64,000 nucleotides of DNA, from sequence record MN850645.1; one strand, written 5' to 3'. Each line of letters begins with the position of its first letter. Within the stretch, counting starts at the first letter, position 1. Both the position numbers and the translations under genes were made by a program. The notes beneath the pieces are model-generated. The model worked only from the letters and a program-made list of their open reading frames with translations, was not told where the DNA came from and ran no database searches. The stretch comes from Escherichia phage outra. This document shows positions 26,756-46,895 of this stretch, piece after piece.

Positions 26756-27443
26756 TTAGTCGTTCCTCCGCTTGCTTAAAAATATTTACATCGGCTTCAC
26801 AGCCTAAGTATTCTCTACCTGTTAAAAGTGCCGCAACTTGTGTTGTTGCACTTCCAGAGAAGAAGTCTAAGACTACATCTCCTTCGTTGGTATGTATATT
26901 AATAAGGTCACAAAACAAAGTCAAGTGTTTTTGTGTCGGATGAAAACGATCTGCTCCTTGATAGATAGGATACTCAAACACACCCTTGTGGTAGGAGGCA
27001 TTGAAGGTTGGCTTAGAACCTTTAACACAAACAATAGCCATCTCTTTAGCGTTACTAAGGTAGTTAACACCACTGTTGATGGGTACAGGGTTTGTTTTAA
27101 TCCATTCAATAGTACGGAACATACGAAAACCAAGCGGTTCAAGGATTTCACGTAGCTCCTGGATCTTCCAGATATCATACCAAACTATGCAAGTACCACC
27201 TTTTCTAAGCACCCTATAGGCTTCTTTGAATACTTCTTTAAAGTAAGGAATATCTACAACATCCCAATCCCCAAAGTTGTAAGATACACGGAATCTATCT
27301 GTATCTTTTCCAGTAGGCTCTCCAGATTGAAAATTTGTGTCACGAGAAATAGCATATGGTGGGTCAGTAAGAATCAAATCTACACTATTGCTTTCGAGGG
27401 TTTGCAGGTAGTTTAACGCGGTGTTGTTTACAAATTCGCTCAT
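26712..27443 (-). CDS. DNA methyltransferase (amino-MTase, beta-class; N6-adenine or N4-cytosine)
   Basis: 243 aa; DPPY (motif IV) near the N-terminus and FFSGSATT (motif I, AdoMet binding) near the C-terminus; RBS GAAGGAG. Confidence 0.8.
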   Translation of the reverse strand: MSEFVNNTALNYLQTLESNSVDLILTDPPYAISRDTNFQSGEPTGKDTDRFRVSYNFGDWDVVDIPYFKEVFKEAYRVLRKGGTCIVWYDIWKIQELREILEPLGFRMFRTIEWIKTNPVPINSGVNYLSNAKEMAIVCVKGSKPTFNASYHKGVFEYPIYQGADRFHPTQKHLTLFCDLINIHTNEGDVVLDFFSGSATTQVAALLTGREYLGCEADVNIFKQAEERLNEYTEQQNHPESTD

Positions 27444-27455
27444 TATATCTCCTTC

Positions 27456-27481
27456 AAAGAAAAGGAGCCGTTAGGCTCCTT
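27456..27481 (-). terminator. rho-independent terminator after the SSB-like gene
   Basis: Hairpin AAGGAGCC-TAAC-GGCTCCTT followed on the minus strand by TTTCTTT; about 90% identical to the hairpin at 26292-26313. Confidence 0.6.
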
Positions 27482-27503
27482 ATATTTACACAATATTTAA
27501 CTA

Positions 27504-28451
27504 TTAGAAACAGTGCAGGAAGTTTCGACCATACTGCAAACCAATAGGAGCAAATGGGATATCATCATCGAAATCTTGAACAACAGGTTCTGGTTCTTTC
27601 GGTGCTGGCTCTTTCTTCTCTACTTTTTTAGTTTCTTTCTTAACTTCTTGTACTGGGGTAGACATTCCACGGATAGCAGCAGCTACTTTATCAGACAAAG
27701 CAAGAACTTCACGAGCAGCTTCAATAATCTCTTCTGCCGTTACAGTTTTACCTGTATGATCACGACAAGCGTTAAGAATTGCGTGTCCAACTGAAGCACC
27801 AAGATCATAGTCAGTCACATCAACGCCACGATCTTTAGCAATTTCTGCTTTCAGAGTAACAGTTGCAGATTGTACCACACCAGCCAAGTCGAAAGCATCA
27901 CCTTTCACACCAGCACGTAGAAGCTCCAGAGCGCCGTTTACAGCGTGTCCTGTTTCAATCCCTACGGTATCACGTTTTTTGTAGTTAGGCTTGCTACCTT
28001 CGTTATTAGATGGCTTATTTCCACCTTTTGAAGAAGATTGTGCTTGCTGAACACCTTCTGTTGAAAGAATAGTGATTTTACCTTTAGAGGAATTGTAGTA
28101 TGTTTTGCCATTCCATTCAGAAGGTTTAACATCCATAGTTAGTTCTACACCTTTTTCGATAGTAACCCACTTGTCACCATCTTTAACTTGCAGGTTTTCA
28201 TGTTCTGGATGCAGTTTAACTTCACCTAGGCTAACCCAAACACCTTTATCATCAGCACTAGCACCTTTCTCTTTAATAAGCAGAGATGCTTTGTGAGTTG
28301 ATTCAATTTTCTTATCTGGCTGACCTGCAACCTTAATATAAGAGACTTTCATTTCATCAAACTTATCCAGTTTGACATATTCAACGATACCTTCAGCCCA
28401 GAATGCTTCTTTTTTAGTACGACGGTCGATTTCAGAATTAATTACTGGCAT
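27504..28451 (-). CDS. single-stranded DNA-binding protein-like
   Basis: 315 aa; beta-rich N-terminal region; Lys/Glu/Pro linker and acidic DFDDDIPF motif (SSB tail signature) 15 aa before a C-terminal Phe; RBS GAGGAG. Confidence 0.55.
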   Translation of the reverse strand: MPVINSEIDRRTKKEAFWAEGIVEYVKLDKFDEMKVSYIKVAGQPDKKIESTHKASLLIKEKGASADDKGVWVSLGEVKLHPEHENLQVKDGDKWVTIEKGVELTMDVKPSEWNGKTYYNSSKGKITILSTEGVQQAQSSSKGGNKPSNNEGSKPNYKKRDTVGIETGHAVNGALELLRAGVKGDAFDLAGVVQSATVTLKAEIAKDRGVDVTDYDLGASVGHAILNACRDHTGKTVTAEEIIEAAREVLALSDKVAAAIRGMSTPVQEVKKETKKVEKKEPAPKEPEPVVQDFDDDIPFAPIGLQYGRNFLHCF

Positions 28452-28467
28452 AAATTCTCCTCTATAA

Positions 28468-28866
28468 TTACATTACTTTAACACAAAACTCTCGTAAAAG
28501 AGTAGCGTCAGTTTCTTCCAACAGGTATTTACCAAGACCAATACCAAATCCTATTTCACCACTTTCGAAATGGAGGATTTGTATCTTTTCTCCACCAAGG
28601 TTAATTACTTTTGCTTTTCCAGGATTATCCAAAACATCTCGTATTGTATCCTGTAGTAACATAAGCTCACGTTTTGTGATAGTGGTTTCAGATATCTCTT
28701 TGTTTTCTACCCGCACTGTTAAACGGTTGTATCCACCAAAGAGACATAGTATTTGAATAAAAAAGGTATTATCTTGAGGTTCAACATCTTTTTTAGTTAG
28801 CTCAAGACGGTTAGTTTCCCTACTGTAGAACGTCTCGACTAAGATTTTAGAACGATTATCTGTCAT
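28468..28866 (-). CDS. hypothetical protein
   Basis: 132 aa ORF with GAGGA RBS. Confidence 0.4.
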   Translation of the reverse strand: MTDNRSKILVETFYSRETNRLELTKKDVEPQDNTFFIQILCLFGGYNRLTVRVENKEISETTITKRELMLLQDTIRDVLDNPGKAKVINLGGEKIQILHFESGEIGFGIGLGKYLLEETDATLLREFCVKVM

Positions 28867-28909
28867 TCAAGTCCTCATAATAACACATAATTATAATGTT
28901 TGTCAACAC

Positions 28910-29503
28910 TTAAATCTTAAATTCTTCGTTGTTAAATGAATCCAGTGTACGTACTTCTGGTTCTTTGGGAATGAAAACGTCTTTTACAAAGCGGAACATA
29001 GGGAAACGTTCTGCCATTTTACGGACGTGTGCTTCCTTACCTGTGTATCGGTGATTAATAGTACAAATATTAGTTTTCAGTGCAAATTCAAAGTCTGGAT
29101 GATATACATAATTTTGACCATCCCAGTAACACAGGCAAATAGCCACATCAAAGTTCCATACGATTTCACTGCGTACACCCTCTTCCATGATCATAAAGTT
29201 AAACTTAAGATCTTTATAGTATGCTTCAAATACCCATTTCAAATGTGGTAGTTCGGCATAAGTGTGTTCTGTTTGCTTAGTAAGTTGTTTAACATTACGT
29301 GCACCAACACCCAACATCAAAAATTTCTCTACTAGTACGAGTGTATTGTGGTTAGGCATACGCAAGTAAATGTCAATATCTTGCGCAGGTTTCTCTAATC
29401 GCCAATCACGTACAGCGCCGCCAGCTACAATTGCAAACGGATCTACCAGTTGGCACATACGTAATACTTCTAAAGCTCGTACTTTTTGATCTTCAATATT
29501 CAT
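28910..29503 (-). CDS. nucleotidyltransferase, CCA-adding / poly(A) polymerase head-domain type (Pol-beta superfamily)
   Basis: IVAGGAVRDWRL...DIDIYL matches the GGAVRD-DxD catalytic signature of class II CCA/PAP enzymes; only ~197 aa. Start revised to the ATG at 29503 (AGGAGA 5 nt upstream); the track's start at 29524 is a GTG within that RBS. Confidence 0.55.
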   Translation of the reverse strand: MNIEDQKVRALEVLRMCQLVDPFAIVAGGAVRDWRLEKPAQDIDIYLRMPNHNTLVLVEKFLMLGVGARNVKQLTKQTEHTYAELPHLKWVFEAYYKDLKFNFMIMEEGVRSEIVWNFDVAICLCYWDGQNYVYHPDFEFALKTNICTINHRYTGKEAHVRKMAERFPMFRFVKDVFIPKEPEVRTLDSFNNEEFKI

Positions 29504-29537
29504 ATTTTCTCCTATCGTGTCCACTCTTTGTGTTGTT

Positions 29538-29660
29538 CTACATACTCAAGCATTTCATTATATAGTGCTTTTTCATATAATGCGGCGTTAGTTTCTTACT
29601 ACCAGGTAGCGTACTCTCGCCTTCCAAATCATTAATACCTTCACCATATACGGTAAGCAT
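29538..29660 (-). CDS. possible small ORF (40 aa) in an apparent intergenic gap
   Basis: ATG at 29660 with AAGGAG 5 nt upstream, TAG at 29540-29538; below the ORF-track size cut-off. Confidence 0.25.
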   Translation of the reverse strand: MLTVYGEGINDLEGESTLPGSKKLTPHYMKKHYIMKCLSM

Positions 29661-29687
29661 AAAAACTCCTTTAAAATCAAAGAGATG

Positions 29688-32267
29688 TCAGTGACAAGAC
29701 GCCCATGAGTTACCAACATCGTAACCAGCAGTGAGAGGTACATTAAGATTGTAATACTCACCAGCTTTATTAACAGCGATAGATGCTAATTCTCCAGCAC
29801 GACTGTAGGCTGTAAACCAACCACCTTTCGGAGATTCATGTACGTTAGCCCAAATCTTGCCAGTACGTTTCTCTTCCTCTTCTTTCCAGGCATTAACTTT
29901 ATCCAAACATTCTTTATCAATTTTCTTTTGTTCTTCTGGATCATCAACTTGAGTCCAACCTAAAGATTCTTTAGAGAACCATTTAAAATGCACCAGATCA
30001 CGAGTTACTTCAAGCTGTGCTTCATCGTGATATGCAATCATTTGTTGAACGAATGACTTATTTTTCCAGTCATCAACAAAAAAGTCAACAGCTAATCCTT
30101 CTTCTTCGATAAGATCGTCGTAGATAACCATTGCTCTTTTTGCACAAATAACACCACCACTCTGGAACAGAGAGTTAAGTATTGCGTGTGCAGATCGTGT
30201 AGGTACTTTCCTACCATCAATACCCAGAATGTATTTCTTACCTGTTTTAACCCAAAAGTCATGCAGACGTTCTTTAAGAAGCGCAAGAGGTTTTGCAGCT
30301 TCCCAGAAAGCATCGTATACAAGCTGTCCTGTATACATATCACTACCTATAGTTTTTGCTACTTTTGCAGCTTGAGCACCATAAGTAATACCATACTTAA
30401 CAGATTTAGCAGGGCTTCGTTCAAACTTACGACCAATAGTGTCAGAAATACGTCGAGCCATCATTGTATGAACGTCATTAGGTTTTTCCAATAACAGAGC
30501 ATTACAATATTCGTGTGGTTCCTGCTCGTACCGCCAACAGTAGTGTGATTCTATTTTTGCCTCAAGAGAATCAAAGTCATAACCAATTTGGAAGTATTTT
30601 GGAACTTCTACACCAAATAAGTTACGCATTTCATATCCGTACAGAGATGTTACACGTGGGATATTTGCTACTAGCCTATGTTTCATACGAGACGTAGCTG
30701 CATCACACGTTGCAGCAGGAGTTGGTATACGACCATCAGCCCTTACTGCTGCCAGATAACCTTTATCGTAATCCTCTTCATCTTCTTCCCAATCAGCACC
30801 ACCCCCTAGAATAGAGTTCCTACGGTGTTTATACGTAAGATACTGCACAATCTGCGTAGCATAAGGAAACTTTTCACCTAGTGCTTCCAAGTTAGGACAA
30901 ATATCTTTCTCTTGCCCTTTTGTAAAGGAAGGGTTCGTAAGCACTTTAACACCACGACCTTTAGCTTTAGCAATACGATCTCTTAGTTTCCATTCCAAAG
31001 TTTCTGGTGTGCACTCCAGATGATCACATCTGTCCTGGCAGAAGTTAGATGCTAATGTTTGATCAACATAGTCACGAATAGCTTTCTCCATTTGTGCTTC
31101 ATCTTTCTTAATCTTAGTGCCAGATTTAAGAGTGATATCTTTATCTTTATATTCAGATGGACTCCAACCTAAACCAACTAACCAGTTTTTAATATGTGTA
31201 GTGTCGTCTAAAGTAGCAGGTACTGTAGGATCACAAATAGGTTCTTCTGCTGGAATAGGTAGTTTAAACTCTTTACCTAATGCAAATAGCCACCAACCAT
31301 CTTCTTTTTGTACAAGTTCACCAGAATGTTTCTCTGCAAACTTTATCATGTTACTTGAAGGTTCACCATTCTTTTTAAACTGTAGTTTAGGTGGAATGAA
31401 TGATTTCAAATAACCTTTAGTAGCAGGTTTAGGAGGTAGCACAGGTTCTGCCTCTAAACGACATGCTTCCATTCGAGCATCCAGATCACGAATATTATCT
31501 TCTGCTTGTTTCATATTGAAAGCAAAGCCACGGTGCTCTTGACGTGTAATAATATCAGCTACACGTTGTTCTAAGTTAAATGGTTCAGACCACTTGTTAT
31601 AATCACCCCACTCTTCCATCAAATAACGGAACACTGCGGTGTTAGCTTTGTTATCGTAAATACAGTAATACAGCATATCTGCTGCAAATGTTTTAAATCT
31701 TTCAGTTTCAGGAATGTTTTTTCTAAAATCAATTTTAACATCCCCTCCAGCTTTCTTAGATAACTCTGCCAGACTATGACCACCGAAGCGATCAGGGTTT
31801 AGTGTCTTACTTAAGATCATAGTATCACAAATTTCAATGTTACTATTACCCCAAGTATTGTACTTAATACTGTAGTTGAGTTTAAAAAATAATTTAATTG
31901 CCAGTAAGTCAAAGTTAATGATGTTATGTCCAACTACTTTGGTAATTTTATAGTTTGAATTACCTTTAAATTTACCTGTTCCATTTACAAAATCAGGAAA
32001 ATCTTTAAGAGGGAAATGGGTATATTCTAAATGCTCATATTCCTCCAGTCGGTATTCATACTTTCCGTCAGTCTCAACATACGGACGACCATCGAAAAGA
32101 TATTTATCACCATCATGGAAAGCAATAATCTCTCCAGTATCATGACTTTCGCACACAATACAGTGCATTGCAAAACTATCTTTTAAACGATATGGACTTG
32201 CCAAGTAATCTACACTTTCGTCATTAAGCAAGTTGTTACTTTCAATGTCGAAAGTAAAAGCTCCCAT
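29688..32267 (-). CDS. DNA polymerase, family A, with 3'-5' exonuclease domain
   Basis: 859 aa; N-terminal FTFDIESNNL (Exo I DxE); motif A DFDSLEAKI, motif B RSPAKSVKYGITYG, motif C AYHDEAQLEV; RBS AAGGAGGG. Confidence 0.85.
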   Translation of the reverse strand: MGAFTFDIESNNLLNDESVDYLASPYRLKDSFAMHCIVCESHDTGEIIAFHDGDKYLFDGRPYVETDGKYEYRLEEYEHLEYTHFPLKDFPDFVNGTGKFKGNSNYKITKVVGHNIINFDLLAIKLFFKLNYSIKYNTWGNSNIEICDTMILSKTLNPDRFGGHSLAELSKKAGGDVKIDFRKNIPETERFKTFAADMLYYCIYDNKANTAVFRYLMEEWGDYNKWSEPFNLEQRVADIITRQEHRGFAFNMKQAEDNIRDLDARMEACRLEAEPVLPPKPATKGYLKSFIPPKLQFKKNGEPSSNMIKFAEKHSGELVQKEDGWWLFALGKEFKLPIPAEEPICDPTVPATLDDTTHIKNWLVGLGWSPSEYKDKDITLKSGTKIKKDEAQMEKAIRDYVDQTLASNFCQDRCDHLECTPETLEWKLRDRIAKAKGRGVKVLTNPSFTKGQEKDICPNLEALGEKFPYATQIVQYLTYKHRRNSILGGGADWEEDEEDYDKGYLAAVRADGRIPTPAATCDAATSRMKHRLVANIPRVTSLYGYEMRNLFGVEVPKYFQIGYDFDSLEAKIESHYCWRYEQEPHEYCNALLLEKPNDVHTMMARRISDTIGRKFERSPAKSVKYGITYGAQAAKVAKTIGSDMYTGQLVYDAFWEAAKPLALLKERLHDFWVKTGKKYILGIDGRKVPTRSAHAILNSLFQSGGVICAKRAMVIYDDLIEEEGLAVDFFVDDWKNKSFVQQMIAYHDEAQLEVTRDLVHFKWFSKESLGWTQVDDPEEQKKIDKECLDKVNAWKEEEEKRTGKIWANVHESPKGGWFTAYSRAGELASIAVNKAGEYYNLNVPLTAGYDVGNSWASCH

Positions 32268-32335
32268 TCTCCCTCCTTAAAATATTTCTAAAGTCTTAAT
32301 TTGTTAATACTGTACCACAAATTAATTGTTTTGTA

Positions 32336-32353
32336 AAGGGGCTTTCGCCCCTT
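32336..32353. terminator. GC-rich hairpin AAGGGGC-TTTC-GCCCCTT between two minus-strand genes
   Basis: 7 bp G/C stem; same element as the hairpin at 22364-22383 in inverted orientation; the downstream U-tract is weak on the minus strand and better on the plus strand. Confidence 0.45.
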
Positions 32354-32357
32354 CTTG

Positions 32358-32753
32358 TTATTTATTGTCAGCACTTAGTTGTACTTTAATAAGGCAATTA
32401 GGGACACCATTGGTATTTCTCAAGCCTACACGTTCAATTTTAACAGTGCCTGTCAAACCATTAAAAGTGGAAACAATGTTATTAATGTTTTCATCCTTAC
32501 TAGTGATATCAAGAATAACTTTATCACTGACATTTTTCAACATACGATCTACAAGCTCTCCCACAAAACCACTGGTAGTTTGAATGAGAAGGTATAGACA
32601 ACCATCCTCAAACCACAAATGTTCACCATAAGCATAACCGTATGGTTCTAATTCTGATCCGTCTTGAAATTTAAACTTAGCAATAGTTTTCGTATAATCA
32701 TACGCTAAAGCAGAAGGGCATACCCCATAGAGGATGTTTTCGTTGTCTTTCAT
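32358..32753 (-). CDS. hypothetical protein (start revised to internal ATG)
   Basis: The ATG at 32753 has AAGGAG 6 nt upstream and sits right after the primase-helicase stop; the longer track ORF (to 32882) would overlap that gene by 119 nt. Confidence 0.45.
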   Translation of the reverse strand: MKDNENILYGVCPSALAYDYTKTIAKFKFQDGSELEPYGYAYGEHLWFEDGCLYLLIQTTSGFVGELVDRMLKNVSDKVILDITSKDENINNIVSTFNGLTGTVKIERVGLRNTNGVPNCLIKVQLSADNK

Positions 32754-32763
32754 ATTTTTCTCC

Positions 32764-34536
32764 TTAATAAGAACCAGCAGAGATGTTCTCTGGGTTACTT
32801 GTGTATTGATCGTAATCGTGAAGTGTAGCTGTTTTAATCTCATAGAAGAAACTACCTGCTGCACCAGTCTCTGAGAACTCACGGTTCTTTAGAATGTAGC
32901 AATATGTGCGGTTACGTTCCATAGGATCTTCAGCTTGTTTATCACGCTCCAGCGCAATTGTGATACCAGCACCTTTAGCAAGGAAGCTACTACCCATTGC
33001 ATCATCTTCTACAATATGTTCATTACTATTGTTAGAAGACTTTTTAACGTGTGAAATTACAACAATGGTTATTGCATACTCTTTCATAATGCGTTTCAGC
33101 CACGTCGCAAGTTCCTCTTGTTGTGACACGTCCATACCAGAAAGCAAATCAGAATAAGGGTCGATAACAAGAATGGTTACTCCGAAATAAATAATCATTT
33201 CCAGAACCTTCTCTTTAATCACATCTACGTTAGCTCCACGATCATCACAAACATAGAAACGTGGTGTTCCATCTTCTCGTTCGTAAAAATCACGAATCTT
33301 TTCTTCATTATCTTTTAAAATCTTTTCCTTCTCTTCTTTCGTTTTACGGTGAAGAGGGATATGCAAGAATGAAGACAGTAAGTTACGAGAATACTTCTTA
33401 TACGTTGCCTCCAAAGATAAAATACCAAGAGTATGTTCTGGATGTGCAAGAATAATGTGCTTTGTAATCTCGTTAACCAACAGTGTCTTACCAATACTTG
33501 TTTTTGCAAGTATAACAGTAATTTCTTCTTCTACCAAGCCTCCACCTAACATATTAGAAGCAACACGCATGAATGGAGGAAGGGTGATCATTTTAGCTTC
33601 CAGGCATTCCAAGGCTGCTTCATACAGTACGTTAGAAGCGTAAACACCAGCAGGTGTGTACAATTTAGCTTTGAAAAAGCGATCAATAAAATGATCAATT
33701 TTTCCTTCTACTAGTGCCTGGTTAGGATCTTTAACATCCGTTAGTTCCATCACGTAAACTTTATTACGTGGTAAGATTTTAACACATTTCTCAACTGCTG
33801 CACGTCCAGCTTCATCATTATCCATACATAGAACAATCTTTTTAAATTGATCTAAGAATTTATAACGATGTTGAAGCTGCTTATGCAGAGATGTTTCGCC
33901 ACAAGTACCAGATACTACAGCAGGAACAGGATATTTACCACCCTTGTTATAATCTTTTAGCATCTGTGTTGCAGCCAGCATATCGTGTTCACCACCAACG
34001 ATTAGAATAGTACCGCTGTGGTTACGATATTTAAACTCCCCAAAAAGATCACAATCCTTTCCTGTTTCACCGATAGGATGCGAGAAATCTTTTGGATCGA
34101 TACGTTGTTTATACCCAGCAATATTGTAATCTTTAGTTGTAGGGTATAGTGTTGAAATTACTTCGCCAGTAGCTTCATCGTACATATAACGTACACCGAA
34201 AGGCTTAGAGATATCTTCACGAATACCGCGATAACCTTTTGGATTAGTTCCAGTGCTGGCTTTTAGTTTATCATGTACTTCTGGATTAAACTCACTACCC
34301 AAGATATCCTCCTCTTCAATTTCTTCGCCGTGTGCATTTAACCATTTTTGATCAGGGATAGTAAAGCCACAAGAAAAACAATGTGCGCCTCGATGGTCTT
34401 CATCGGCATCTAAGCCATATACCATCAAATTGTTTTGTGATCGATCACGCCCTCCTTTCATACAACGAGGACACCCAGTATGTCCTTCTTGACTTAGATC
34501 AATGTTATACCCATATTTATTTACAACATAAGACAC
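32764..34536 (-). CDS. DNA primase / helicase (T7 gp4-like)
   Basis: 590 aa; N-terminal zinc ribbon (CPRCMKGG...CFSCGF), central TOPRIM-like region, C-terminal DnaB-type helicase with Walker A (AKTSIGKT); GTG start after AGGAG. Confidence 0.8.
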   Translation of the reverse strand: MSYVVNKYGYNIDLSQEGHTGCPRCMKGGRDRSQNNLMVYGLDADEDHRGAHCFSCGFTIPDQKWLNAHGEEIEEEDILGSEFNPEVHDKLKASTGTNPKGYRGIREDISKPFGVRYMYDEATGEVISTLYPTTKDYNIAGYKQRIDPKDFSHPIGETGKDCDLFGEFKYRNHSGTILIVGGEHDMLAATQMLKDYNKGGKYPVPAVVSGTCGETSLHKQLQHRYKFLDQFKKIVLCMDNDEAGRAAVEKCVKILPRNKVYVMELTDVKDPNQALVEGKIDHFIDRFFKAKLYTPAGVYASNVLYEAALECLEAKMITLPPFMRVASNMLGGGLVEEEITVILAKTSIGKTLLVNEITKHIILAHPEHTLGILSLEATYKKYSRNLLSSFLHIPLHRKTKEEKEKILKDNEEKIRDFYEREDGTPRFYVCDDRGANVDVIKEKVLEMIIYFGVTILVIDPYSDLLSGMDVSQQEELATWLKRIMKEYAITIVVISHVKKSSNNSNEHIVEDDAMGSSFLAKGAGITIALERDKQAEDPMERNRTYCYILKNREFSETGAAGSFFYEIKTATLHDYDQYTSNPENISAGSY

Positions 34537-34548
34537 AGGATTCTCCTA

Positions 34549-34818
34549 CTAAAATGATTCGTTTGTCTCCATAATATATTGCATTTCCAAATCTTCCATA
34601 TGTTTCTTAAATTGGTAAACAATTTCCGATGGGGAAATATCTATATCAAAAAGTTCTTTTGTACCAGAATAAAACCTAATACCATCAACAATAAGACCAC
34701 CATAATAATCCCAATCACTTTCTCGTGAGAAAGGGTTAGGTTCTTCATAATAGTAATCTACTTCAACAATAATAGGTTCTTTATTATCTTGTTTATACTC
34801 AAAATCAAAAGTGTTCAT
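34549..34818 (-). CDS. hypothetical protein
   Basis: 89 aa acidic ORF coupled to the upstream gene (TAATG overlap). Confidence 0.4.
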   Translation of the reverse strand: MNTFDFEYKQDNKEPIIVEVDYYYEEPNPFSRESDWDYYGGLIVDGIRFYSGTKELFDIDISPSEIVYQFKKHMEDLEMQYIMETNESF

Positions 34819-35762
34819 TATAAATCCTCGATAAGCAGTCTGCGGGTTTCATTTAAATCATCAATATTGTAGTTATCTCTTACATACTTAGCAAGAGCCA
34901 ATCCTTTCTCAATACAAACATCAGGAGATTCGATTAAGTATTCTACAATATCTTTCCACTCTTTAACTGAATCAGCAAAGAAGATTAGATCTTTAAATTC
35001 TTCAGTATAATAGTTCTCTCGTGGCGAACAAACGAGTGGCAAACCTTTAGCACCAGCTTCAAGAATTTTTAAATTACTTTTGGCATTATTAAAATGATTA
35101 TTTACTAATGGAGCTATGGAGATTTGATGACCATCGTATGCTTCCATATAACACTCATAAGGACGAATACCTTCATAAACACAATCTGGTTGAATATCTT
35201 CTTTAATTTGCAACCATTGAGCACTACTTAACTCTTCGTGATCTCTACGAAATCCACATAAAGTTAAATCTTTACCAAAATCAGGAAGAATTGCTAAATC
35301 ATGTTTATGGGTTTCACTTCCCGCCCAAACCAGTGGACTTTTAGAATAACGATCTTTAGTAAGAACAAACTGTCCTTCATCAAAAGGTAGTCCGTTAGGC
35401 ACAATATGTACATTATCATTGTATTGGCTTAATTCAACCTTTAATGCCGGAGTTGTTGTAGTTACAAGATCGCTTCTTTCAAGAAACCATTTTAGGTCAT
35501 CTCGGATTTGATTTTCAAATAGTCCTTCAAGCATATGTCCTTCAGGAATAATTAAAGAATCATCCAGATCCATTACCAATTTAAACCCAAGTTGTTTAAG
35601 AGCCAGGAAACCTGGCTTTCCACGTGTTGGTACACCATTGAACACAAAAATATTATGCTTAGGATTAATGGTCAGTTTGCGTTTATATGGCAAAATGATT
35701 CTATGAAAATCACATACACTATACTTTTCATTTCCGCGTGTGTCAAGAATAATATTAGGCAT
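34818..35762 (-). CDS. glycosyltransferase-like protein, GT-B fold candidate (paralog 1)
   Basis: 314 aa; clear paralog of the next gene (shared blocks VDLDD, PxDEGQFxLTKDR, YDGHxIxIAPLVxNxFNNxKSNLKILEAGAKGLP); the last block resembles the GT-B donor-binding motif. Confidence 0.45.
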   Translation of the reverse strand: MPNIILDTRGNEKYSVCDFHRIILPYKRKLTINPKHNIFVFNGVPTRGKPGFLALKQLGFKLVMDLDDSLIIPEGHMLEGLFENQIRDDLKWFLERSDLVTTTTPALKVELSQYNDNVHIVPNGLPFDEGQFVLTKDRYSKSPLVWAGSETHKHDLAILPDFGKDLTLCGFRRDHEELSSAQWLQIKEDIQPDCVYEGIRPYECYMEAYDGHQISIAPLVNNHFNNAKSNLKILEAGAKGLPLVCSPRENYYTEEFKDLIFFADSVKEWKDIVEYLIESPDVCIEKGLALAKYVRDNYNIDDLNETRRLLIEDL

Positions 35763-35773
35763 ATAACTCCTTG

Positions 35774-36787
35774 TTAAAGACTTTCAATAACTTGACGACG
35801 CAGTTCATTGGCATCTGCAAGATTATAATTAAGACGAACGTGTTCTGCAAGCATCATACCACGATCTTCTGTGTATCTAGGGTTCCTCATTAGCTTGACA
35901 ACTTCATAATGCCAAGATGCTTTAGAGTCTGCATAGATAACAGCCTTTGCATCTACCGGATTGAAGTACGGCAGCACAGGAGAACAGATAATAGGAAGAC
36001 CCTTTGCACCTGCTTCCAAAATCTTCAAATTGCTTTTACAGTTGTTGAAGTCATTATCTACCAGGGGAGCAATTGCAATGCTGTGACCGTCATACACAGA
36101 CATATACTCACCTAAATTTTTAATAGCTGGTTTATACTGTGCATTTGGAATTTTACGTTTTATTTTAACCCACTCCGCAGTAGTTAGATACTGACTGTTA
36201 TTTCCAACAGGTGCAGAAGGATACACTTCATACCCTGCAATTGTCAATAGTGTATCATCAAATGTATTAGCTACAAGAGATAAATCAGGCTCGTGGCTTG
36301 CTCCTCCAGCCCAGATAATAGGCGTGTCAGAATTACGGTCTTTTGTCAAAGTAAATTGACCTTCGTCGTAAGGTAGTGCGTTTCTAATTACGACAACATT
36401 ACGATTTAAATGACGAATTTTGTAAGCTAGGTATTCTGTTGTTACAGTAACAACATCTGCTAACTTAACCATCTCTACAATAGTCTTTGAATGATTAGTA
36501 AATACGCCAGCCATATAATGTTCAGGATTAAGTGAATAAAAGTCATCTAAATCAACAATAATCTTAACACCTTGTGCCTTCAGGCGTTTAACCTCGTCTG
36601 CTCCACGAGAATACACTCTATTAAAAACTAAAACGTCTTTCTTAGGTTTAAACGTATTTCCAGCAAATGGCATTACAATACGATGGTAATCACAACCACT
36701 GCCTAACTTATTATCACACTTAAGTACAGGAGTATTAGGATTTACCATATTTTTGAGCCTCCTCATAAGAGATAAAAGTTTTACCAT
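35774..36787 (-). CDS. glycosyltransferase-like protein, GT-B fold candidate (paralog 2)
   Basis: 337 aa; tandem paralog of 34818-35762. Alternative in-frame starts at 36766 and 36748, the latter with a GAGGAGG RBS. Confidence 0.45.
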   Translation of the reverse strand: MVKLLSLMRRLKNMVNPNTPVLKCDNKLGSGCDYHRIVMPFAGNTFKPKKDVLVFNRVYSRGADEVKRLKAQGVKIIVDLDDFYSLNPEHYMAGVFTNHSKTIVEMVKLADVVTVTTEYLAYKIRHLNRNVVVIRNALPYDEGQFTLTKDRNSDTPIIWAGGASHEPDLSLVANTFDDTLLTIAGYEVYPSAPVGNNSQYLTTAEWVKIKRKIPNAQYKPAIKNLGEYMSVYDGHSIAIAPLVDNDFNNCKSNLKILEAGAKGLPIICSPVLPYFNPVDAKAVIYADSKASWHYEVVKLMRNPRYTEDRGMMLAEHVRLNYNLADANELRRQVIESL

Positions 36788-37421
36788 TGCGAAGATCCTC
36801 CAAGGATTGTTTATATTGTTCCCAGTTTACACCAATCCCCTGTTCTTTCTCTTCTTTTGACAGATTCGCAAAAGGTAAAGGATTGTCTCCAAATACATCA
36901 TCAGGATGGATAAACGCCATAATTCGAATAGGACATGGCACGCCTTGAATACCTCGGTTCAAACCTGCCAGTGGAACGCGATGAATCCACTCTGCATCTT
37001 CATATCCATAACCGTGGGTGTATGAGCGGAAATAGCCAGCTTTCTCAATAACTGCACGGGAATACATACCAAACTGGCACATACCTAGTTCCCAAATAAC
37101 CACTTCCCCTTCAATACCTTTTACTTTATCTTTAAAGTATTCAGGCATACCAAAGAAATCCCAACCATTTTCCTTCGCCTGTTTTACAAAATATGTTTCC
37201 CAACCTTGAACAACAGGATAGCAATCATCATCAAAAATAAACCAGTAATCATACCCTTCATCATAAAACTTTTTCATCAGTTCATTACGAGCATATGCAA
37301 CACCTTTTCGCTCCCGATCATACTGTACAACAAAAGTAGCATTAGGATCAGTCACAAGATAATCTTTAAGAGGACGCTTACCTACAGTAATAACACCAAC
37401 ACCAATTTTTGTATTTTCCAA
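36735..37421 (-). CDS. glycosyltransferase, family 2-like (GT-A fold)
   Basis: 228 aa; TTG start after AAGGAG; N-terminal IGVGVITVGKR, then RKGVAYARNELMK and DxD motif FIFDDDCYP, as in GT2 enzymes. Confidence 0.65.
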   Translation of the reverse strand: MENTKIGVGVITVGKRPLKDYLVTDPNATFVVQYDRERKGVAYARNELMKKFYDEGYDYWFIFDDDCYPVVQGWETYFVKQAKENGWDFFGMPEYFKDKVKGIEGEVVIWELGMCQFGMYSRAVIEKAGYFRSYTHGYGYEDAEWIHRVPLAGLNRGIQGVPCPIRIMAFIHPDDVFGDNPLPFANLSKEEKEQGIGVNWEQYKQSLEDLRNGKTFISYEEAQKYGKS

Positions 37422-37430
37422 AATAACTCC

Positions 37431-37994
37431 TTAAATAATTTTATTCATGTCTTGACAATGTAAAAGGTGTGAAATAGCTTTTCTAGGATCATCATTACCT
37501 AAACGGTATGTGTGAAATAAATATAACCCACGTAGTAAACCTAGCCTTTTATTGTTAGCGTGCAATGCTTTAGAGAAAATTATATCAAACTGTATTGATC
37601 TTTCCTCAAAAGGGATTTCATTCCACAGACTCTTACGAAAGAGAAGAAAGAATCCTGCTAAGATAGCATCTGTAGGTACTTCCTCTATTGAGTTTCCCCA
37701 TTCTAGATGTGCTCTTTTTGCAATCTCAATGTGGTGTAGTATATTCGGATCTTCACTTCTTTCATTATTAAATAATTGATATGTTGATCCCAATCTATTA
37801 CAAGATGCACCAAGAACATCAAAATCAGGATTTGAACGGACTATTGATTCCAGCCAAGCAGGTTGTTCTGGAAGAAGAAACATTGTATCAATGTCTCTTA
37901 GGCAAATCCAACTATCTTCTGGTAAGACACTTATTGTGTCATTGATACCTTTTCCAATATCTCCAGAAAGATAGGGAGTTATGTGAAATATCAT
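37431..37994 (-). CDS. putative glycosyltransferase (DxD-containing), first gene of the GT block
   Basis: 187 aa; contains ICLRDIDTMF; GGAGGG RBS; assignment is weak and rests mainly on context. Confidence 0.3.
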   Translation of the reverse strand: MIFHITPYLSGDIGKGINDTISVLPEDSWICLRDIDTMFLLPEQPAWLESIVRSNPDFDVLGASCNRLGSTYQLFNNERSEDPNILHHIEIAKRAHLEWGNSIEEVPTDAILAGFFLLFRKSLWNEIPFEERSIQFDIIFSKALHANNKRLGLLRGLYLFHTYRLGNDDPRKAISHLLHCQDMNKII

Positions 37995-38022
37995 ACTCCC
38001 TCCGTATTATTACTTTAGCATT

Positions 38023-42709: not shown

Positions 42710-43813
42710 TTAAAGTAGACCACGTTTAACAGTTTGAATCATACCATCTTCAAGAGATTGCACTTCTTGAATGTAATCAATACGAGCAGCACGGGCTTCA
42801 GTGTTGATTCGGTTAGTTTCTTCCAACATTTTAACCAAGTTTTCTTGATCACGACGTAATGTTTCAATATCCAATACTTGACGATTAGCAAGTTGTGTAG
42901 CTTCAATTTGGTTTTGTGCAGCCAAATCACTACCCATTGCAATCGCAGCATTAAATTCATTTAGTACATTGTTCTGTGTATCGGCTGCTTTCTTCTGGCG
43001 TAGACTTTCAATATACATAGAAAAGTTTGCAGAGTAAGCAGGGATAACATTATTCACAATATTACGGGCTGATCGCATCAAACTTGCAGATACTTTCTGC
43101 ATACTTTGTACACGTGGCCCCATCTGAACACATAGTAAGCGTAAGGCTTTCAGGTCTGCAATACGAATTTCAAGCAGATCCATAGTATCACGAGTACGTT
43201 GACGCTCTTCTACCTCATTTTCAGGCAGTGTATTAAGGCGAATTTCTTCTTTTTCATAAGTAGCTGTTAGAAGCTCTATATCCCTGTTTAAACTAAGGGC
43301 ATATTTTGCAATAGCCTCTTCTAAACGTTGCAGATATCGTAAAGAATCTTCTTCTTTTTTCAAGTCTGTTTGGAGTGTCTTTACCAAACCTTCAATACGG
43401 TTATTGATGGTGTCAAATTCTCCAAACAAATCTTCTTTCATACCTAAAACTTTCTTAACTAGTTTACCTAAACCTTTAGATTGTTTAATAGAGTTAGGAT
43501 CAAGTTGCTTTGCTTGCTTAATAAGCGCAGTTAAACGTTCACTCATTTCATCTCCCTGAGATGAACGCTGGTGTTTAAGCACTTCAGCATTAAGGTTACG
43601 AAGAGTAAGTCCTGCATCAGCACCAACCTGTTCAATCTCTTCACGAGACATTGGAGGCAGCATTTGTACAGGTCGTGCAACAGCAGGGGCATATACAGGA
43701 CTTGCATCCATAGCAGTTGGAGCAAACAAAGACTTACTTTTTTCTGTTGTTGCCGTGAATACACTCATTTCAGACGGTTTGCTTTTTACGGCACTGATAA
43801 AAGGACTGGACAT
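42710..43813 (-). CDS. telA: TelA-like toxic-anion-resistance protein
   Basis: 367 aa, predominantly helical coiled-coil with the size and architecture of TelA/KlaB/YaaN-family proteins; GGAGGAAA RBS; flanked by terD/vWA and terC. Confidence 0.5.
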   Translation of the reverse strand: MSSPFISAVKSKPSEMSVFTATTEKSKSLFAPTAMDASPVYAPAVARPVQMLPPMSREEIEQVGADAGLTLRNLNAEVLKHQRSSQGDEMSERLTALIKQAKQLDPNSIKQSKGLGKLVKKVLGMKEDLFGEFDTINNRIEGLVKTLQTDLKKEEDSLRYLQRLEEAIAKYALSLNRDIELLTATYEKEEIRLNTLPENEVEERQRTRDTMDLLEIRIADLKALRLLCVQMGPRVQSMQKVSASLMRSARNIVNNVIPAYSANFSMYIESLRQKKAADTQNNVLNEFNAAIAMGSDLAAQNQIEATQLANRQVLDIETLRRDQENLVKMLEETNRINTEARAARIDYIQEVQSLEDGMIQTVKRGLL

Positions 43814-43861
43814 TCAATTTCCTCCATATTCTTTAGTAGATGGTGATACTTCTATACCACC

Positions 43862-43889
43862 ATCATAACACAAGTTAAGTATTAAACAA
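43862..43889 (-). promoter_or_regulatory. candidate sigma70-like promoter upstream of telA (TTGTTT-16 nt-TATGAT)
   Basis: -35 at 43889-43884 and -10 at 43867-43862 on the minus strand, about 45 nt upstream of the telA ATG. Confidence 0.35.
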
Positions 43890-44733
43890 ACATATCTAAA
43901 TAATTTGTAGTAATAAATGCTCCATCTGCTTCCAGATTAACATAACCCGTGGTATTAGCAGTTAAGAAATCCAGATCGAAGGACTCTTTAACACCCCGTA
44001 CCTCAACACGAGAGATATCGAATACAGGTAGTGTAACAGCCTCTTCGTGCAATACCGTACCTTTGTAGGTTGCCTTAATGATAAACTTGATATTACCCGT
44101 TCCAGCATCATACAAAACACTTTCAAACCCTTTGAGAGTATATTTATCACCAGAAGTGAAGTGCAAAGTTGCTTTGTTTACAGTACGTTTTTTACGAGGA
44201 GTTCCTTTCACACGTTTATGATCACTACGTTTTTTGTATTTAGGAATGAATACAAACGATACACTCTCAAGAAAGGTATCAACATCAAGGATTTTAATAT
44301 CCTCTGTTGCAGCAAATTTTGAAGTCGTTGCATCAAAATGCTTTTCCCTGCGATCATACATAAAGATATCAAACCGATCTTCTAAATCAAACAAATTATG
44401 TATTTTAATTTCAGAATGCTTGCGCATTGCAGCAACCTTGAACTCTTCAAAACGTGGGTGTTCTACAAGTTCTTCAAGTTTTACACCAAAGACAGTATAT
44501 TGCTTCGAAGTCTTTTCTGGTGTTGGCATTACAGAAGCATAATCACCGATTGCGCTCTTAAAGCAAAATTGTTCTTGACCTGTATTTTTACCAACGAATT
44601 TACAGTATTCGTCATTGTGCATACTTTCCTTGGTAGTACCAACAAACTCAAAACCATCTTTATTCTTCTCAAGAATTTCTTGATTAAAGATCCAACCTTC
44701 CAGGCGATACACTTTACCAACTTCTAGTTTCAT
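43882..44733 (-). CDS. hypothetical protein
   Basis: 283 aa; AAGGAGA 5 nt upstream; no motif recognised. Confidence 0.4.
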   Translation of the reverse strand: MKLEVGKVYRLEGWIFNQEILEKNKDGFEFVGTTKESMHNDEYCKFVGKNTGQEQFCFKSAIGDYASVMPTPEKTSKQYTVFGVKLEELVEHPRFEEFKVAAMRKHSEIKIHNLFDLEDRFDIFMYDRREKHFDATTSKFAATEDIKILDVDTFLESVSFVFIPKYKKRSDHKRVKGTPRKKRTVNKATLHFTSGDKYTLKGFESVLYDAGTGNIKFIIKATYKGTVLHEEAVTLPVFDISRVEVRGVKESFDLDFLTANTTGYVNLEADGAFITTNYLDMFV

Positions 44734-44768
44734 CTGTTTCTCCTTCTTATTTAATCTGTATTAAATTA

Positions 44769-45359
44769 TTAACGACGACGTGAGCTACTAAAACTACGTT
44801 TCGACGAAGAATAACTTTTCGAAGACTTACTATAAGAGCTAATAGGACTTGAGTAAGACTTACGAGCAGAGTAATCACTATTCACTTTTGTTGTTGATGG
44901 GCGTGAATACGTTTGTACACTTTGCTGCTTAATTGTGTTTTGTTTAGTGGTTGTATATGTATTCCCTTGTTTATCATAAAACCTATGCTTTTGTGTTGTA
45001 TATGCTTTACTATTAGTTGTAGGAGCAGCGTTGTTATTGATAATTGTTGTATTGCTACCGCCATCTCTATAACCACCACCGCCACTATTACCACTCAACA
45101 TATGACCAAGAAGCATACCTGTAGCAAACTCACCTACGCCAGAAGAACCACTGCCGCCTCCTTGCACAACAACTGTTGAAGGTTGTGCAGGTGCTGCTTG
45201 AACAACTTGAGGTGCAGGCTGATTTACATATTGTTCATCTACCATCTGATTTGGTGTTTGTTGGTAACGTTGATTTTGTACATTTTCAGAATCATCACAA
45301 CCTACCAGCAATGCACTACCTAAAACAACTGCAACAATAAAAGATTTAATGTTTTTCAT
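44769..45359 (-). CDS. lipoprotein with glycine-zipper motif and Ser/Tyr/Lys-rich basic C-terminus
   Basis: Start revised to the ATG at 45359 (GAGAGGG 7 nt upstream); signal peptide with lipobox LLVGC; GGGSGSSGVGEFATGMLLGHMLSGNSGGGG resembles glycine-zipper outer-membrane lipoproteins. Confidence 0.5.
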   Translation of the reverse strand: MKNIKSFIVAVVLGSALLVGCDDSENVQNQRYQQTPNQMVDEQYVNQPAPQVVQAAPAQPSTVVVQGGGSGSSGVGEFATGMLLGHMLSGNSGGGGYRDGGSNTTIINNNAAPTTNSKAYTTQKHRFYDKQGNTYTTTKQNTIKQQSVQTYSRPSTTKVNSDYSARKSYSSPISSYSKSSKSYSSSKRSFSSSRRR

Positions 45360-45552
45360 TTGTAACCCTCTCATTTAAAATCTCAACACAATTTTTAAAA
45401 TCCCTAGAGAAACAATACATCTGTTCTCCGTTCCTGTTGATAGTAATTGTATGGTTATCAATATATGTTGTCAAGATAAAAATCAAACAAAACAAACCTA
45501 GAGCAAAACAAATATTTTCAAACAGAATCCAAAGAACACGTAAAACCACCAT
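45346..45552 (-). CDS. small membrane protein
   Basis: 68 aa; one strongly hydrophobic N-terminal helix; GAGGTG RBS just downstream of the terC terminator. Confidence 0.35.
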   Translation of the reverse strand: MVVLRVLWILFENICFALGLFCLIFILTTYIDNHTITINRNGEQMYCFSRDFKNCVEILNERVTNEKH

Positions 45553-45561
45553 CAGATCACC

Positions 45562-45583
45562 TCAATAAAGCCCCCGAAGGGGC
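45562..45583 (-). terminator. rho-independent terminator after terC
   Basis: Hairpin GCCCC-TTCG-GGGGC followed on the minus strand by TTTATTG. Confidence 0.55.
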
Positions 45584-45591
45584 TTAATGAA

Positions 45592-46569: not shown

Positions 46570-46587
46570 TCTTTTCTCCTCTTTAAT

Positions 46588-46606
46588 GCGGAGGACAATC
46601 CTCCGC
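46588..46606 (-). promoter_or_regulatory. stem-loop in the terC 5' leader (GCGGAGG-ATTGT-CCTCCGC)
   Basis: Perfect 7 bp G/C stem between a predicted promoter and the terC RBS; no U-tract. Confidence 0.4.
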
Positions 46607-46618
46607 TCTATGTCTTAT

Positions 46619-46646
46619 ACTATAAACTGTTTTTAAAGAAAGTCAA
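46619..46646 (-). promoter_or_regulatory. sigma70-like promoter upstream of terC (TTGACT-16 nt-TATAGT)
   Basis: -35 at 46646-46641 and -10 at 46624-46619 on the minus strand. Confidence 0.45.
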
Positions 46647-46895
46647 CTAGTTCAGTTCTGTAATTTTAAGTTTATCTTCTTTGTTAATGACAGGGAAAGC
46701 TACAGCATCACCTACGTCATCAATAAAGCAAATAGCAAGACCACCTTCCACTTTGCTGATTTGACCATTAAAGGCGTGATACGGGGCAGGAACTTGATCT
46801 CCATCTTCAAGGAGAATAGCCTCGTAAACCTTGCCGATAGTACAATCACGAGTGTTTCTAAATTTTTCAAGCACTTCAACATTTACTTTACGCAT
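46647..46895 (-). CDS. hypothetical protein
   Basis: 82 aa; GAGAGGA 8 nt upstream. Confidence 0.4.
   Translation of the reverse strand: MRKVNVEVLEKFRNTRDCTIGKVYEAILLEDGDQVPAPYHAFNGQISKVEGGLAICFIDDVGDAVAFPVINKEDKLKITELN

What the first reader, a model, noticed from the sequence alone, without database searches (positions are those of the whole stretch)
28910..29503. Minimal CCA / poly(A)-polymerase-type nucleotidyltransferase (GGAVRD motif) beside the DNA polymerase gene
The ~197 aa protein carries the hallmark GGAVRD-DxD head-domain signature of class II tRNA nucleotidyltransferases but lacks the usual body and tail domains. No tRNA genes are visible in this window. A phage-encoded CCA-type enzyme could repair tRNA 3' ends damaged by host anticodon or acceptor-stem nucleases, or it could be a minimal nucleotidyltransferase with a different substrate, such as a signalling nucleotide or a protein.
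Basis: partly seen in the sequence, partly recalled or inferred. Interest (0 to 1): 0.55.

Follow-up and report, generated by a model that had tools for sequence, protein, structure and literature searches.

The report
Short Gad2-family phage nucleotidyltransferase
The gene is real and encodes a small enzyme with the catalytic head of CCA-adding/poly(A) enzymes, but it belongs to the phage-only "Gad2" family, one member of which blocks the bacterial Gabija defence, so it is probably not a tRNA CCA-repair enzyme, and what it modifies is still unknown.

Summary
The 197-aa ORF (window 28910-29503, minus strand) is real. [quoted passage not shown] Membership in that family fails. Sequence similarity stops after motif A, the RRD motif and the EDxxR arginine are missing, there is no body or tail, and the curated CCA models score 14-15 bits against cut-offs above 280.

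The exact protein carries a precomputed hit to Pfam PF26128 "Gad2", the Gabija anti-defence protein of Bacillus phage SPbetaL7. Its family aligns with the Gad2 NTase domain at 94% HHalign probability, against 10% for E. coli CCA. It is a short form that lacks Gad2's C-terminal half.

The family is phage-specific. In 24 of 35 lineages it lies within 6 kb of a family A DNA polymerase and/or a gp4-type primase-helicase. It also occurs in phages with no tRNA genes, and it evolves about twice as fast as its replisome neighbours. A near-identical phage encodes 15 tRNAs that all carry CCA.

Verdict: a new member (short variant) of a known but mechanistically unsolved family, most likely a counter-defence or host-interaction enzyme. 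Interest is moderate.

The parts
28910..29503 (-). CDS of the 197-aa short-form Gad2-family (PF26128) / PHROG 1614 nucleotidyltransferase
   Evidence: ORF and sequence. Same CDS in phage alia JR320_gp038 'nucleotidyltransferase'. PHROG 1614 E=2e-34. Precomputed PF26128:Gad2 hit, unmarked (E<=1e-5), for this exact protein. AF2 pLDDT 90.3.
29509..29513 (-). Shine-Dalgarno-like AGGAG/GGAG, 5 nt upstream of the ATG at 29503
   Evidence: Read directly from the sequence.
29372..29422 (-). Motif A: GGAVRD (residues 28-33) through DID (residues 42-44), the NTP/metal-binding core
   Evidence: G28, G29, A30, R32, D33, W34, D42 and D44 are invariant in 102 homologues. This is the only stretch that aligns with class II CCA enzymes and PAP.
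29198..29200 (-). Asn102 codon. This position is Gln/Asn in 99% of the family and an invariant Gln in Gad2. It lies on the hairpin strand where class II enzymes are inferred to carry their third carboxylate.
   Evidence: Column statistics. Gad2 Q88 is invariant and aligned. The equivalence to the class II Glu is inferred from hairpin topology and was not checked by superposition.
29504..29687 (-). Remnant of an HNH homing-endonuclease gene between the polymerase and NTase genes (448 bp missing relative to ESCO8 and alia)
   Evidence: Alignment with ESCO8. A 597-bp HNH CDS is annotated there in alia. A public contig, L104, has no gene called between the polymerase and NTase genes (137-bp gap).
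29688..32267 (-). Family A DNA polymerase, the upstream neighbour on the same strand
   Evidence: PF00476 E=3e-13. PHROG 17.
32764..34536 (-). T7 gp4-type Toprim primase / DnaB-like helicase in the same gene string
   Evidence: PF13155 plus PF03796.
28877..28906 (-). Strong sigma-70-like promoter match (TTGACA-18-TATTAT with TG) just after the NTase stop codon and ahead of the 132-aa gene
   Evidence: Best match in the scan, 11 of 12 positions. This is a consensus match only.
28468..28866 (-). 132-aa protein of unknown function (PHROG 16560). It is the conserved downstream neighbour in Stephanstirmvirinae-like phages and also evolves fast.
   Evidence: Not related to the Gad2 C-terminal half.
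27504..28451 (-). 315-aa protein that other records annotate as SSB. It carries a DFDDDIPF motif near its C-terminus.
   Evidence: Translation. Annotated as 'single-stranded DNA-binding protein' in the ESCO9 and ESCO32 records. PHROG 4477, function unknown.

Best explanation
The gene encodes a catalytically competent, stand-alone Pol-beta-fold nucleotidyltransferase. It belongs to a phage-specific family that descends from the class II (CCA/PAP-type) head domain and is homologous to the N-terminal enzyme domain of Gad2, the Gabija anti-defence protein. Shown here: the fold, the intact GG...DxD nucleotide/metal site, the homology to Gad2, the loss of the CCA-specific motifs and of the tRNA-binding domains, restriction to phages, placement in the polymerase/primase-helicase gene string, and fast evolution. 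Inferred mechanism: during the DNA-replication phase the enzyme binds an NTP or dNTP through GGAVRD/DID and transfers the nucleotidyl group to an acceptor hydroxyl. This neutralises a host response aimed at replicating phage DNA, such as Gabija or a similar DNA-end- or nucleotide-sensing nuclease system. The most likely acceptor is a nucleic-acid 3' end or a host defence protein, not the CCA end of tRNA. The acceptor and the defence system countered are not established.
Against: No member of the short form has been tested. The only functional data come from 400-aa Gad2 proteins, whose extra C-terminal half (many invariant residues) is absent here and is not encoded by the neighbouring genes. 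That half could carry the anti-Gabija activity. Gad2's own mechanism is unknown. The short form keeps the class II 'RD' of GGxVRD, which Gad2 has lost (GGTITSLF), so the two may use different substrates. The gene sits in a conserved replisome string, not in a variable anti-defence locus like gad1/gad2 of SPbeta phages, and it is present in all close relatives retrieved. Local Pfam and NCBIfam scans give no Gad2 hit because neither local library reports such a model, so the Pfam assignment rests on precomputed hits plus my HHalign runs.
Confidence: 0.45

Rival explanations
1. It is a true minimal RNA 3'-end nucleotidyltransferase of the CCA/poly(A) type. It would repair or tail tRNA or other RNA 3' ends, either to keep translation running after host nuclease attack or to tail host RNAs for shut-off.
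Against: There are no body or tail domains to hold tRNA. RRD is absent and the EDxxR arginine is replaced by Ile/Val in either plausible register. Scores are far below the curated CCA cut-offs. The family is mildly acidic (median pI 6.1). All 15 tRNAs of the near-identical phage encode CCA. Members occur in phages without tRNAs. tRNA genes lie within 6 kb in only about 7 of 36 loci, whereas replication genes do in 24 of 35 lineages. Genuine phage CCA enzymes keep the full length and 40-55% identity to the host enzyme.
Confidence: 0.2
2. It is an accessory enzyme of the T7-type replisome itself. It would act as a template-independent terminal transferase on DNA 3' ends or primers, for example for end processing, concatemer formation or primer maturation, with no role in defence evasion.
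For: Gene neighbourhood is conserved across roughly 25-30%-identical lineages despite shuffled gene order: PRIHEL-POL-NT, PRIHEL-NT-POL, NT-PRIHEL-POL and POL-NT. Here the gene lies between the polymerase and SSB-like genes. The ribose-discriminating RRD motif is absent, which is compatible with dNTP use (inference).
Against: It evolves about twice as fast as the replisome proteins. T7 itself lacks it, and related NTases in Friunavirus phages are absent from close relatives. In ICP1 it is split and lies away from the polymerase. In T7 the region between genes 4 and 6 also holds anti-host genes such as gp5.9 (established knowledge), so synteny with replication genes does not prove a replication role. 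The protein has a neutral to acidic charge.
Confidence: 0.2
3. It nucleotidylylates a small molecule or a protein, for example by AMPylating a host factor or producing or consuming a signalling nucleotide.
Against: Class II RNA-end enzymes, not small-molecule NTases, are the best structural matches. No CD-NTase or SMODS-type match and no PADLOC hit were found. No partner gene suggests a signalling pathway.
Confidence: 0.1
4. It is a non-catalytic structural or decoy protein that only retains the fold.
For: The strand position where a third carboxylate is expected carries Asn/Gln in 99% of members.
Against: GG, RD and DxD are invariant over 102 sequences that are only about 25% identical overall. 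That level of conservation is not expected of a dead enzyme.
Confidence: 0.05

Closest known systems
Gad2 (Gabija anti-defence 2) of Bacillus phage SPbetaL7, Pfam PF26128
   Same: The N-terminal NTase domain is homologous (HHalign Prob 94%, 122 columns). Both share AGG, DxDxY, the conserved Gln strand and the F..(V/I)C motif. Both have class II CCA/PAP enzymes as nearest structures. Both are phage or prophage proteins. The window protein carries a precomputed PF26128 hit.
   Different: Gad2 is about 400 aa, with a conserved C-terminal half that is missing here. Gad2 has GGTITSLF where this protein has GGAVRDW. Gad2 sits in an anti-defence locus of temperate Firmicute phages, whereas this gene sits in the replisome string of a virulent E. 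coli myovirus. Anti-Gabija activity is untested for the short form.
[quoted passage not shown] 1MIV, 3H37, 3AQL)
   Different: Below the Pfam and NCBIfam thresholds. No RRD, no EDxxR arginine, and no neck, body or tail. Asn/Gln at the inferred third-carboxylate position. Half the size.
Short 'tRNA nucleotidyltransferase / PolyA_pol head domain' proteins of Autographiviridae and other phages (e.g. Pectobacterium PP47 gp28, Bordetella BB8 p30, P. putida phage Emajogi gp22, phAPEC8 gp183)
   Same: Similar size of roughly 170-220 aa, the same fold (BFVD TM 0.6-0.8), the same position between or beside the primase-helicase and the DNA polymerase, and no experimental function.
   Different: These are the same kind of protein. 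phAPEC8 gp183 is 37% identical and BB8 p30 about 22% identical. The window protein is simply the Justusliebigvirus orthologue.
Full-length phage-encoded CCA tRNA nucleotidyltransferases (e.g. Escherichia phage A5-4 gp149, 416 aa)
   Same: Phage-encoded and of the same superfamily.
   Different: These are 40-55% identical to E. coli CCA over the head and neck, are full length, and are not in the replisome string. The alia genome has none.
2LA3 (S. pneumoniae NP_344798.1), a stand-alone 'CCA-adding enzyme head domain'
   Different: 10% identity, bacterial origin, and function also unknown.
MenT/AbiEii-type nucleotidyltransferase toxins
   Same: Small Pol-beta NTases that act on tRNA 3' ends. Relatives of the window protein are cytotoxic when over-expressed.

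Membership tests
Class II CCA-adding enzyme / poly(A) polymerase | Motif A: GGxVRD followed by DxD | tested here: met
   GGAVRD at residues 28-33 and DID at 42-44, invariant in the family. Aligns to CCA enzymes 6IBP and 1OU5 and to E. coli CCA.
Class II CCA-adding enzyme / poly(A) polymerase | Curated model thresholds (Pfam PolyA_pol head; NCBIfam CCA equivalogs) | tested here: not met
   PF01743 scores 19.1 bits against a gathering score of 23; only 12 of 102 family members reach E<=0.01. NF009814 scores 15 bits against 290, and TIGR03671 scores 13.9 against 281.
Class II CCA-adding enzyme / poly(A) polymerase | Pol-beta head-domain fold closest to class II enzymes | tested here: met
   [not shown]
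Class II CCA-adding enzyme / poly(A) polymerase | Motif B (RRD, ribose recognition) | tested here: not met
   No Arg-Arg-Asp is present. In the relaxed HHalign and by manual register, RRD falls on residues 115-117 (VWN), and these columns are not conserved. Only the following Phe (F118) is conserved. The alignment is of low confidence.
Class II CCA-adding enzyme / poly(A) polymerase | Motif D (EDxxR amino-acid template that selects C and A) | tested here: not met
   The arginine position is Val160 (Ile in the family consensus) or His/Tyr159 in the two plausible registers. Asp/Glu157 is only 65% conserved. The alignment is of low confidence.
Class II CCA-adding enzyme / poly(A) polymerase | Third catalytic carboxylate on the strand after the beta-hairpin | tested here: inconclusive
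   Asn102 is Gln/Asn in 99% of the family. Its equivalence to the class II Glu is inferred from hairpin topology (conserved Gly plus 4). It was not confirmed by superposition and is not reproduced by the relaxed HHalign.
Class II CCA-adding enzyme / poly(A) polymerase | Neck, body and tail domains that bind the tRNA | tested here: not met
   The protein ends at residue 197, and residues 180-197 have low pLDDT. Bona fide enzymes are 412-465 aa.
Class II CCA-adding enzyme / poly(A) polymerase | CCA or poly(A) addition to RNA 3' ends | not testable with these tools
   Needs an in vitro assay.
Gad2 (PF26128) | Significant match to the Pfam Gad2 model | tested here: met
   Precomputed PF26128:Gad2 hit, unmarked (E<=1e-5), for the exact window protein, also listed for P0001 and most homologues. 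The model is not in the local Pfam copy, so I could not re-run it.
Gad2 (PF26128) | Homology to the NTase domain of experimentally validated Gad2 | tested here: met
   HHalign Prob 85% against the SPbetaL7 Gad2 sequence and 94.4% (E=8.4e-8) against a 25-sequence Gad2 alignment, covering query residues 11-151. BLASTP finds only the motif A stretch.
Gad2 (PF26128) | Conserved C-terminal half (about residues 190-400, with many invariant residues) | tested here: not met
   Absent from the 197-aa protein. Not encoded by the two downstream genes.
Gad2 (PF26128) | Inhibition of Gabija defence | not testable with these tools
   Shown only for SPbetaL7 Gad2 and a Brevibacillus homologue.
PHROG 1614 phage 'nucleotidyltransferase' | Full-length profile match | tested here: met
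   E=2e-34 over residues 7-193.
Defence-system NTases (CD-NTase, MNT/HEPN, MenT/AbiE) | Match to PADLOC models or an adjacent partner gene | tested here: not met
   No PADLOC hit. The neighbours are replisome genes.

The most novel reading that the evidence does not exclude
The short Gad2-like enzymes are a widespread but unrecognised replisome-linked counter-defence module. In this reading a terminal nucleotidyltransferase tails or caps the 3' ends of replicating or injected linear phage DNA (or its primers), so that end-sensing immune nucleases such as Gabija cannot act on them. That would also reveal the still-unknown catalytic mechanism of Gad2.
Probability: 0.15. Interest if true: 0.75.

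Novelty: new member of a known kind. Interest (0 to 1): 0.38.

Why it matters
Gad2 is one of the few anti-defence proteins thought to act as an enzyme, and its mechanism is still listed as unknown in a 2026 review. The window protein represents a large set of half-size relatives, at least 522 clusters at 50% identity, that contain only the catalytic domain. In most lineages with enough flanking sequence they sit within 6 kb of a family A polymerase or a gp4-type primase-helicase. That makes them a simpler object for finding the substrate. It also warns that the common database label 'tRNA nucleotidyltransferase / poly(A) polymerase' for these small phage proteins is probably wrong. For this particular gene the result is mostly a re-classification, not a discovery.

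Tried and rejected
- Direct sequence searches against PDB with the single protein and with the family profile gave only marginal motif A hits.
- Local Pfam, NCBIfam and PADLOC scans gave no family at threshold. The Gad2 model is not reported by the local libraries.
- I looked for phage tRNAs lacking CCA as a rationale for a CCA enzyme. All 15 tRNAs in phage alia encode CCA.
- I looked for linkage to tRNA arrays or to the RNA ligase/phosphoesterase repair genes. The window has no tRNA genes, related loci rarely have one nearby, and in alia those genes lie far from the NTase.
- I looked for informative domain fusions. Some marine homologues carry one or two copies of an N-terminal module of about 90 aa, but it has no Pfam match and only hits a PHROG of unknown function.
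- I tested whether the missing Gad2 C-terminal half is encoded by the downstream genes. It is not.
- I tried to force a full-length profile alignment to class II enzymes. It extends only at very low confidence, so the motif B and D statements are marked accordingly.
- Literature searches found only annotation-level mentions and no biochemical study of the short proteins.
- The Nature version of the Gad2 paper is not held in the library.

Full report
**1. What is there**

The window is part of a Justusliebigvirus, a phAPEC8-like E. coli myovirus of the Stephanstirmvirinae. The region 27000-33000 is 100% identical to phage vB_EcoM_ESCO8 and 99% identical to phage alia.

The finding's coordinates are exact. 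A minus-strand ORF ends at 28910. The ATG at 29503, preceded by GGAG with a 5-nt spacer, gives 197 aa, and public records annotate the same CDS. Residues 28-33 are GGAVRD and residues 42-44 are DID.

The gene follows the 859-aa family A DNA polymerase (PF00476) on the same strand. A Toprim/DnaB-type primase-helicase lies further upstream. Downstream come a 132-aa protein of unknown function, a 315-aa protein that other records annotate as SSB, and a methyltransferase. A strong sigma-70-like match lies just after the NTase stop codon, and no terminator-like site separates the polymerase and NTase genes.

**2. Fold and family**

HMMER against 1.84 billion cluster representatives finds 522 relatives at E<=1e-3, mostly about 175-230 aa long. 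In the 102-sequence alignment G28, G29, A30, R32, D33, W34, D42 and D44 are invariant. Q6, D21, Y82, F118, F138, Y153, K162 and F167 are nearly so. That pattern indicates an active enzyme.

**3. Why it is not a CCA-adding enzyme by membership**

- Sequence similarity to class II enzymes stops after helix 1 and motif A. The family profile against PDB gives E=0.012 over positions 7-50. HHalign against E. coli CCA gives Prob 10% over 23 columns.
- PolyA_pol is below its gathering score, and the NCBIfam CCA equivalogs score 14-15 bits against cut-offs above 280.
- No RRD motif exists. In a relaxed, low-confidence profile alignment and in my manual register, RRD falls on the unconserved residues 115-117. 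The templating arginine of EDxxR falls on Val/Ile160 or His/Tyr159.
- The protein has no neck, body or tail.
- Position 102 is Asn/Gln in 99% of members. It lies four residues after the hairpin glycine, where I infer class II enzymes carry their third carboxylate. This is an inference from topology, not a superposition.
- The family is mildly acidic, with a median pI of 6.1.

**4. tRNA-related tests**

- The window has no tRNA gene.
- The complete genome of the near-identical phage alia has 15 tRNA genes, and all of them encode CCA.
- alia has no other CCA-enzyme homologue.
- Family members occur in a 41.6-kb T7-like Bordetella phage, between the primase/helicase and the DNA polymerase, and in a 47-kb Zobellviridae vibriophage. 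Neither phage has any tRNA gene.
- Genuine phage CCA enzymes exist in 474 phage records. The two I inspected are full length (416 and 422 aa); the listed matches are up to about 55% identical to E. coli CCA, and in A5-4 the gene lies outside the replisome string.

**5. The Gad2 connection**

The homologues carry a precomputed Pfam hit, PF26128. A contig look-up shows that its name is 'Gad2'. The exact window protein has an unmarked hit, meaning E<=1e-5.

Gad2 is the 400-aa anti-Gabija protein of Bacillus phage SPbetaL7. It is predicted to contain a nucleotidyltransferase domain. Knocking it out sensitises the phage to Gabija, and a Brevibacillus homologue cancels Gabija defence. The SPbetaL7 protein itself is toxic when expressed.

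I took the Gad2 sequence from that paper's supplementary table and compared it with the window family:
- The family profile aligns to the single Gad2 sequence with Prob 85% and E=5.9e-6 over 121 columns.
- It aligns to a 25-sequence Gad2 alignment with Prob 94.4% and E=8.4e-8. Query residues 11-151 match Gad2 residues 16-140.
- Shared features include AGG, DxDxY, the Gln strand (VQLM against VQxIHF) and F..(V/I)C.

There are three differences. The window protein lacks the conserved C-terminal half of Gad2, and the neighbouring genes do not supply it. It keeps the class II 'RD-W', where Gad2 has 'TSLF'. And its genomic setting is different.

A 2026 review still lists Gad2's mechanism as unknown. 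Gabija is currently thought to act on linear DNA ends that are devoid of RecBCD activity.

A 2026 preprint on a P. putida phage reports that its NTase gp22, next to the primase/helicase gp23, is cytotoxic at high induction. [quoted passage not shown]

**6. Context and evolution**

A pattern scan of IMG/VR returned 80 loci. I called ORFs in them and clustered the proteins. At 70% identity there are 51 NTase lineages, and 35 of them have at least 4 kb of flank on both sides. Of those 35:
- 24 have a DNA polymerase and/or a gp4-type primase-helicase within 6 kb
- 23 of the 24 have these on the same strand
- 21 have both

The gene order varies, which argues for selection on the linkage. HNH homing endonucleases, 5'-3' exonuclease and ligase genes are the other recurrent neighbours. 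tRNA genes lie within 6 kb in only about 7 of 36 loci.

The same peptide pattern found only 9 hits in 185,579 species genomes, all on MAG contigs, several of phage-like size. The family is therefore phage-specific.

Against syntenic relatives the NTase is 32-52% identical. The polymerase is 71-87% identical, the primase-helicase 72-75% and the SSB-like protein 59-62%. Such fast evolution is typical of host-interaction proteins.

Among cultured phages, 196 records carry a homologue. phAPEC8 gp183 was annotated 'putative tRNA nucleotidyl transferase / poly(A) polymerase' in the original record. Genome papers on Pectobacterium and Acinetobacter podophages discuss such genes as putative CCA enzymes without experiments. 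They also note that the genes are absent from some close relatives.

**7. Interpretation**

Shown:
- an active-site-intact, stand-alone class II-derived NTase
- homology to the Gad2 enzyme domain
- loss of the CCA-specific features
- restriction to phages
- linkage to the replisome genes
- fast evolution

Inferred: it transfers a nucleotide to an acceptor that matters for the conflict between replicating phage DNA and host defence. A Gabija-type system is the only experimentally anchored candidate.

I give this reading 0.45. The rivals are a true RNA/tRNA 3'-end enzyme (0.2), a replication accessory terminal transferase (0.2), a small-molecule or protein NTase (0.1) and a dead enzyme (0.05).

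The main weakness is that every functional datum comes from the long Gad2 form. Its extra domain could be the effector.

**8. Novelty**

The gene is already annotated as a nucleotidyltransferase, and it already falls within a named Pfam family. It is a new member, the short variant, of a known kind. The replisome linkage and the mis-annotation as a tRNA enzyme are the useful take-aways.

Noticed in passing
window 29504-29687: Relative to ESCO8 (otherwise 100% identical) and alia, the window lacks 448 bp from the middle of a 597-bp HNH homing-endonuclease gene that sits between the DNA polymerase and NTase genes. Only the two ends of that gene remain. One public contig (L104) has no gene called there (137-bp gap), so the element is polymorphic.
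   Followed up: partly
window 27504-28451 (minus strand): The 315-aa protein that some records annotate as SSB carries DFDDDIPF, the C-terminal tail motif of E. coli SSB, followed by 15 more residues. This may mimic the host SSB interaction tail. Pfam finds nothing, and it matches only PHROG 4477 of unknown function.
   Followed up: no
window 28877-28906 (minus strand): A near-consensus sigma-70 promoter match (TTGACA, 18 nt, TG-TATTAT; 11 of 12 positions) lies in the 43-bp gap between the NTase stop codon and the 132-aa gene. The downstream genes may therefore have their own promoter.
   Followed up: no
[not shown]
   Followed up: no
homologues P0059, P0188, P0195, P0103, P0197, P0066 (loci L017, L027, L028, L035, L037, L043): Some environmental-phage homologues carry one or two N-terminal copies of a module of about 90 aa (MK.MKFRV.S.EHS..IQ..LF..GY.W...). 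It has no Pfam match and matches only PHROG 17589 of unknown function.
   Followed up: partly
L096 (Vibrio phage ICP1_2001_A) 6959-7535: In ICP1 phages the homologue appears split into two adjacent ORFs (137 aa and about 60 aa). It lies near a DNA ligase and a PRPP-synthetase-like / NamPT gene pair, not near the polymerase.
   Followed up: no
phage alia NC_052655 136833-139531 and 132453-133938 (outside the window): The near-identical genome encodes an adjacent pair annotated ribose-phosphate pyrophosphokinase and nicotinamide phosphoribosyltransferase. This resembles the reported phage NAD+ reconstitution pair (from memory, not tested). It also encodes an RNA ligase next to a phosphoesterase, a possible RNA-repair pair. 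Both are far from the NTase.
   Followed up: no
L009 / L087, 9155-11108: In one distant lineage (35% identical NTase, 147-kb contig binned as Bacteroidetes) a 10-gene tRNA array lies 2.6 kb downstream of the NTase. Nine of the ten genes lack an encoded CCA. This is the only context found that would fit a CCA-adding role.
   Followed up: partly
window about 34800-38000 (from alia annotation 43544-46720): Four consecutive genes annotated as glycosyltransferases lie just past the primase-helicase gene in the same minus-strand gene string. Their target (DNA or a surface glycan) is unknown. The window coordinates are extrapolated from alia and were not checked.
   Followed up: no
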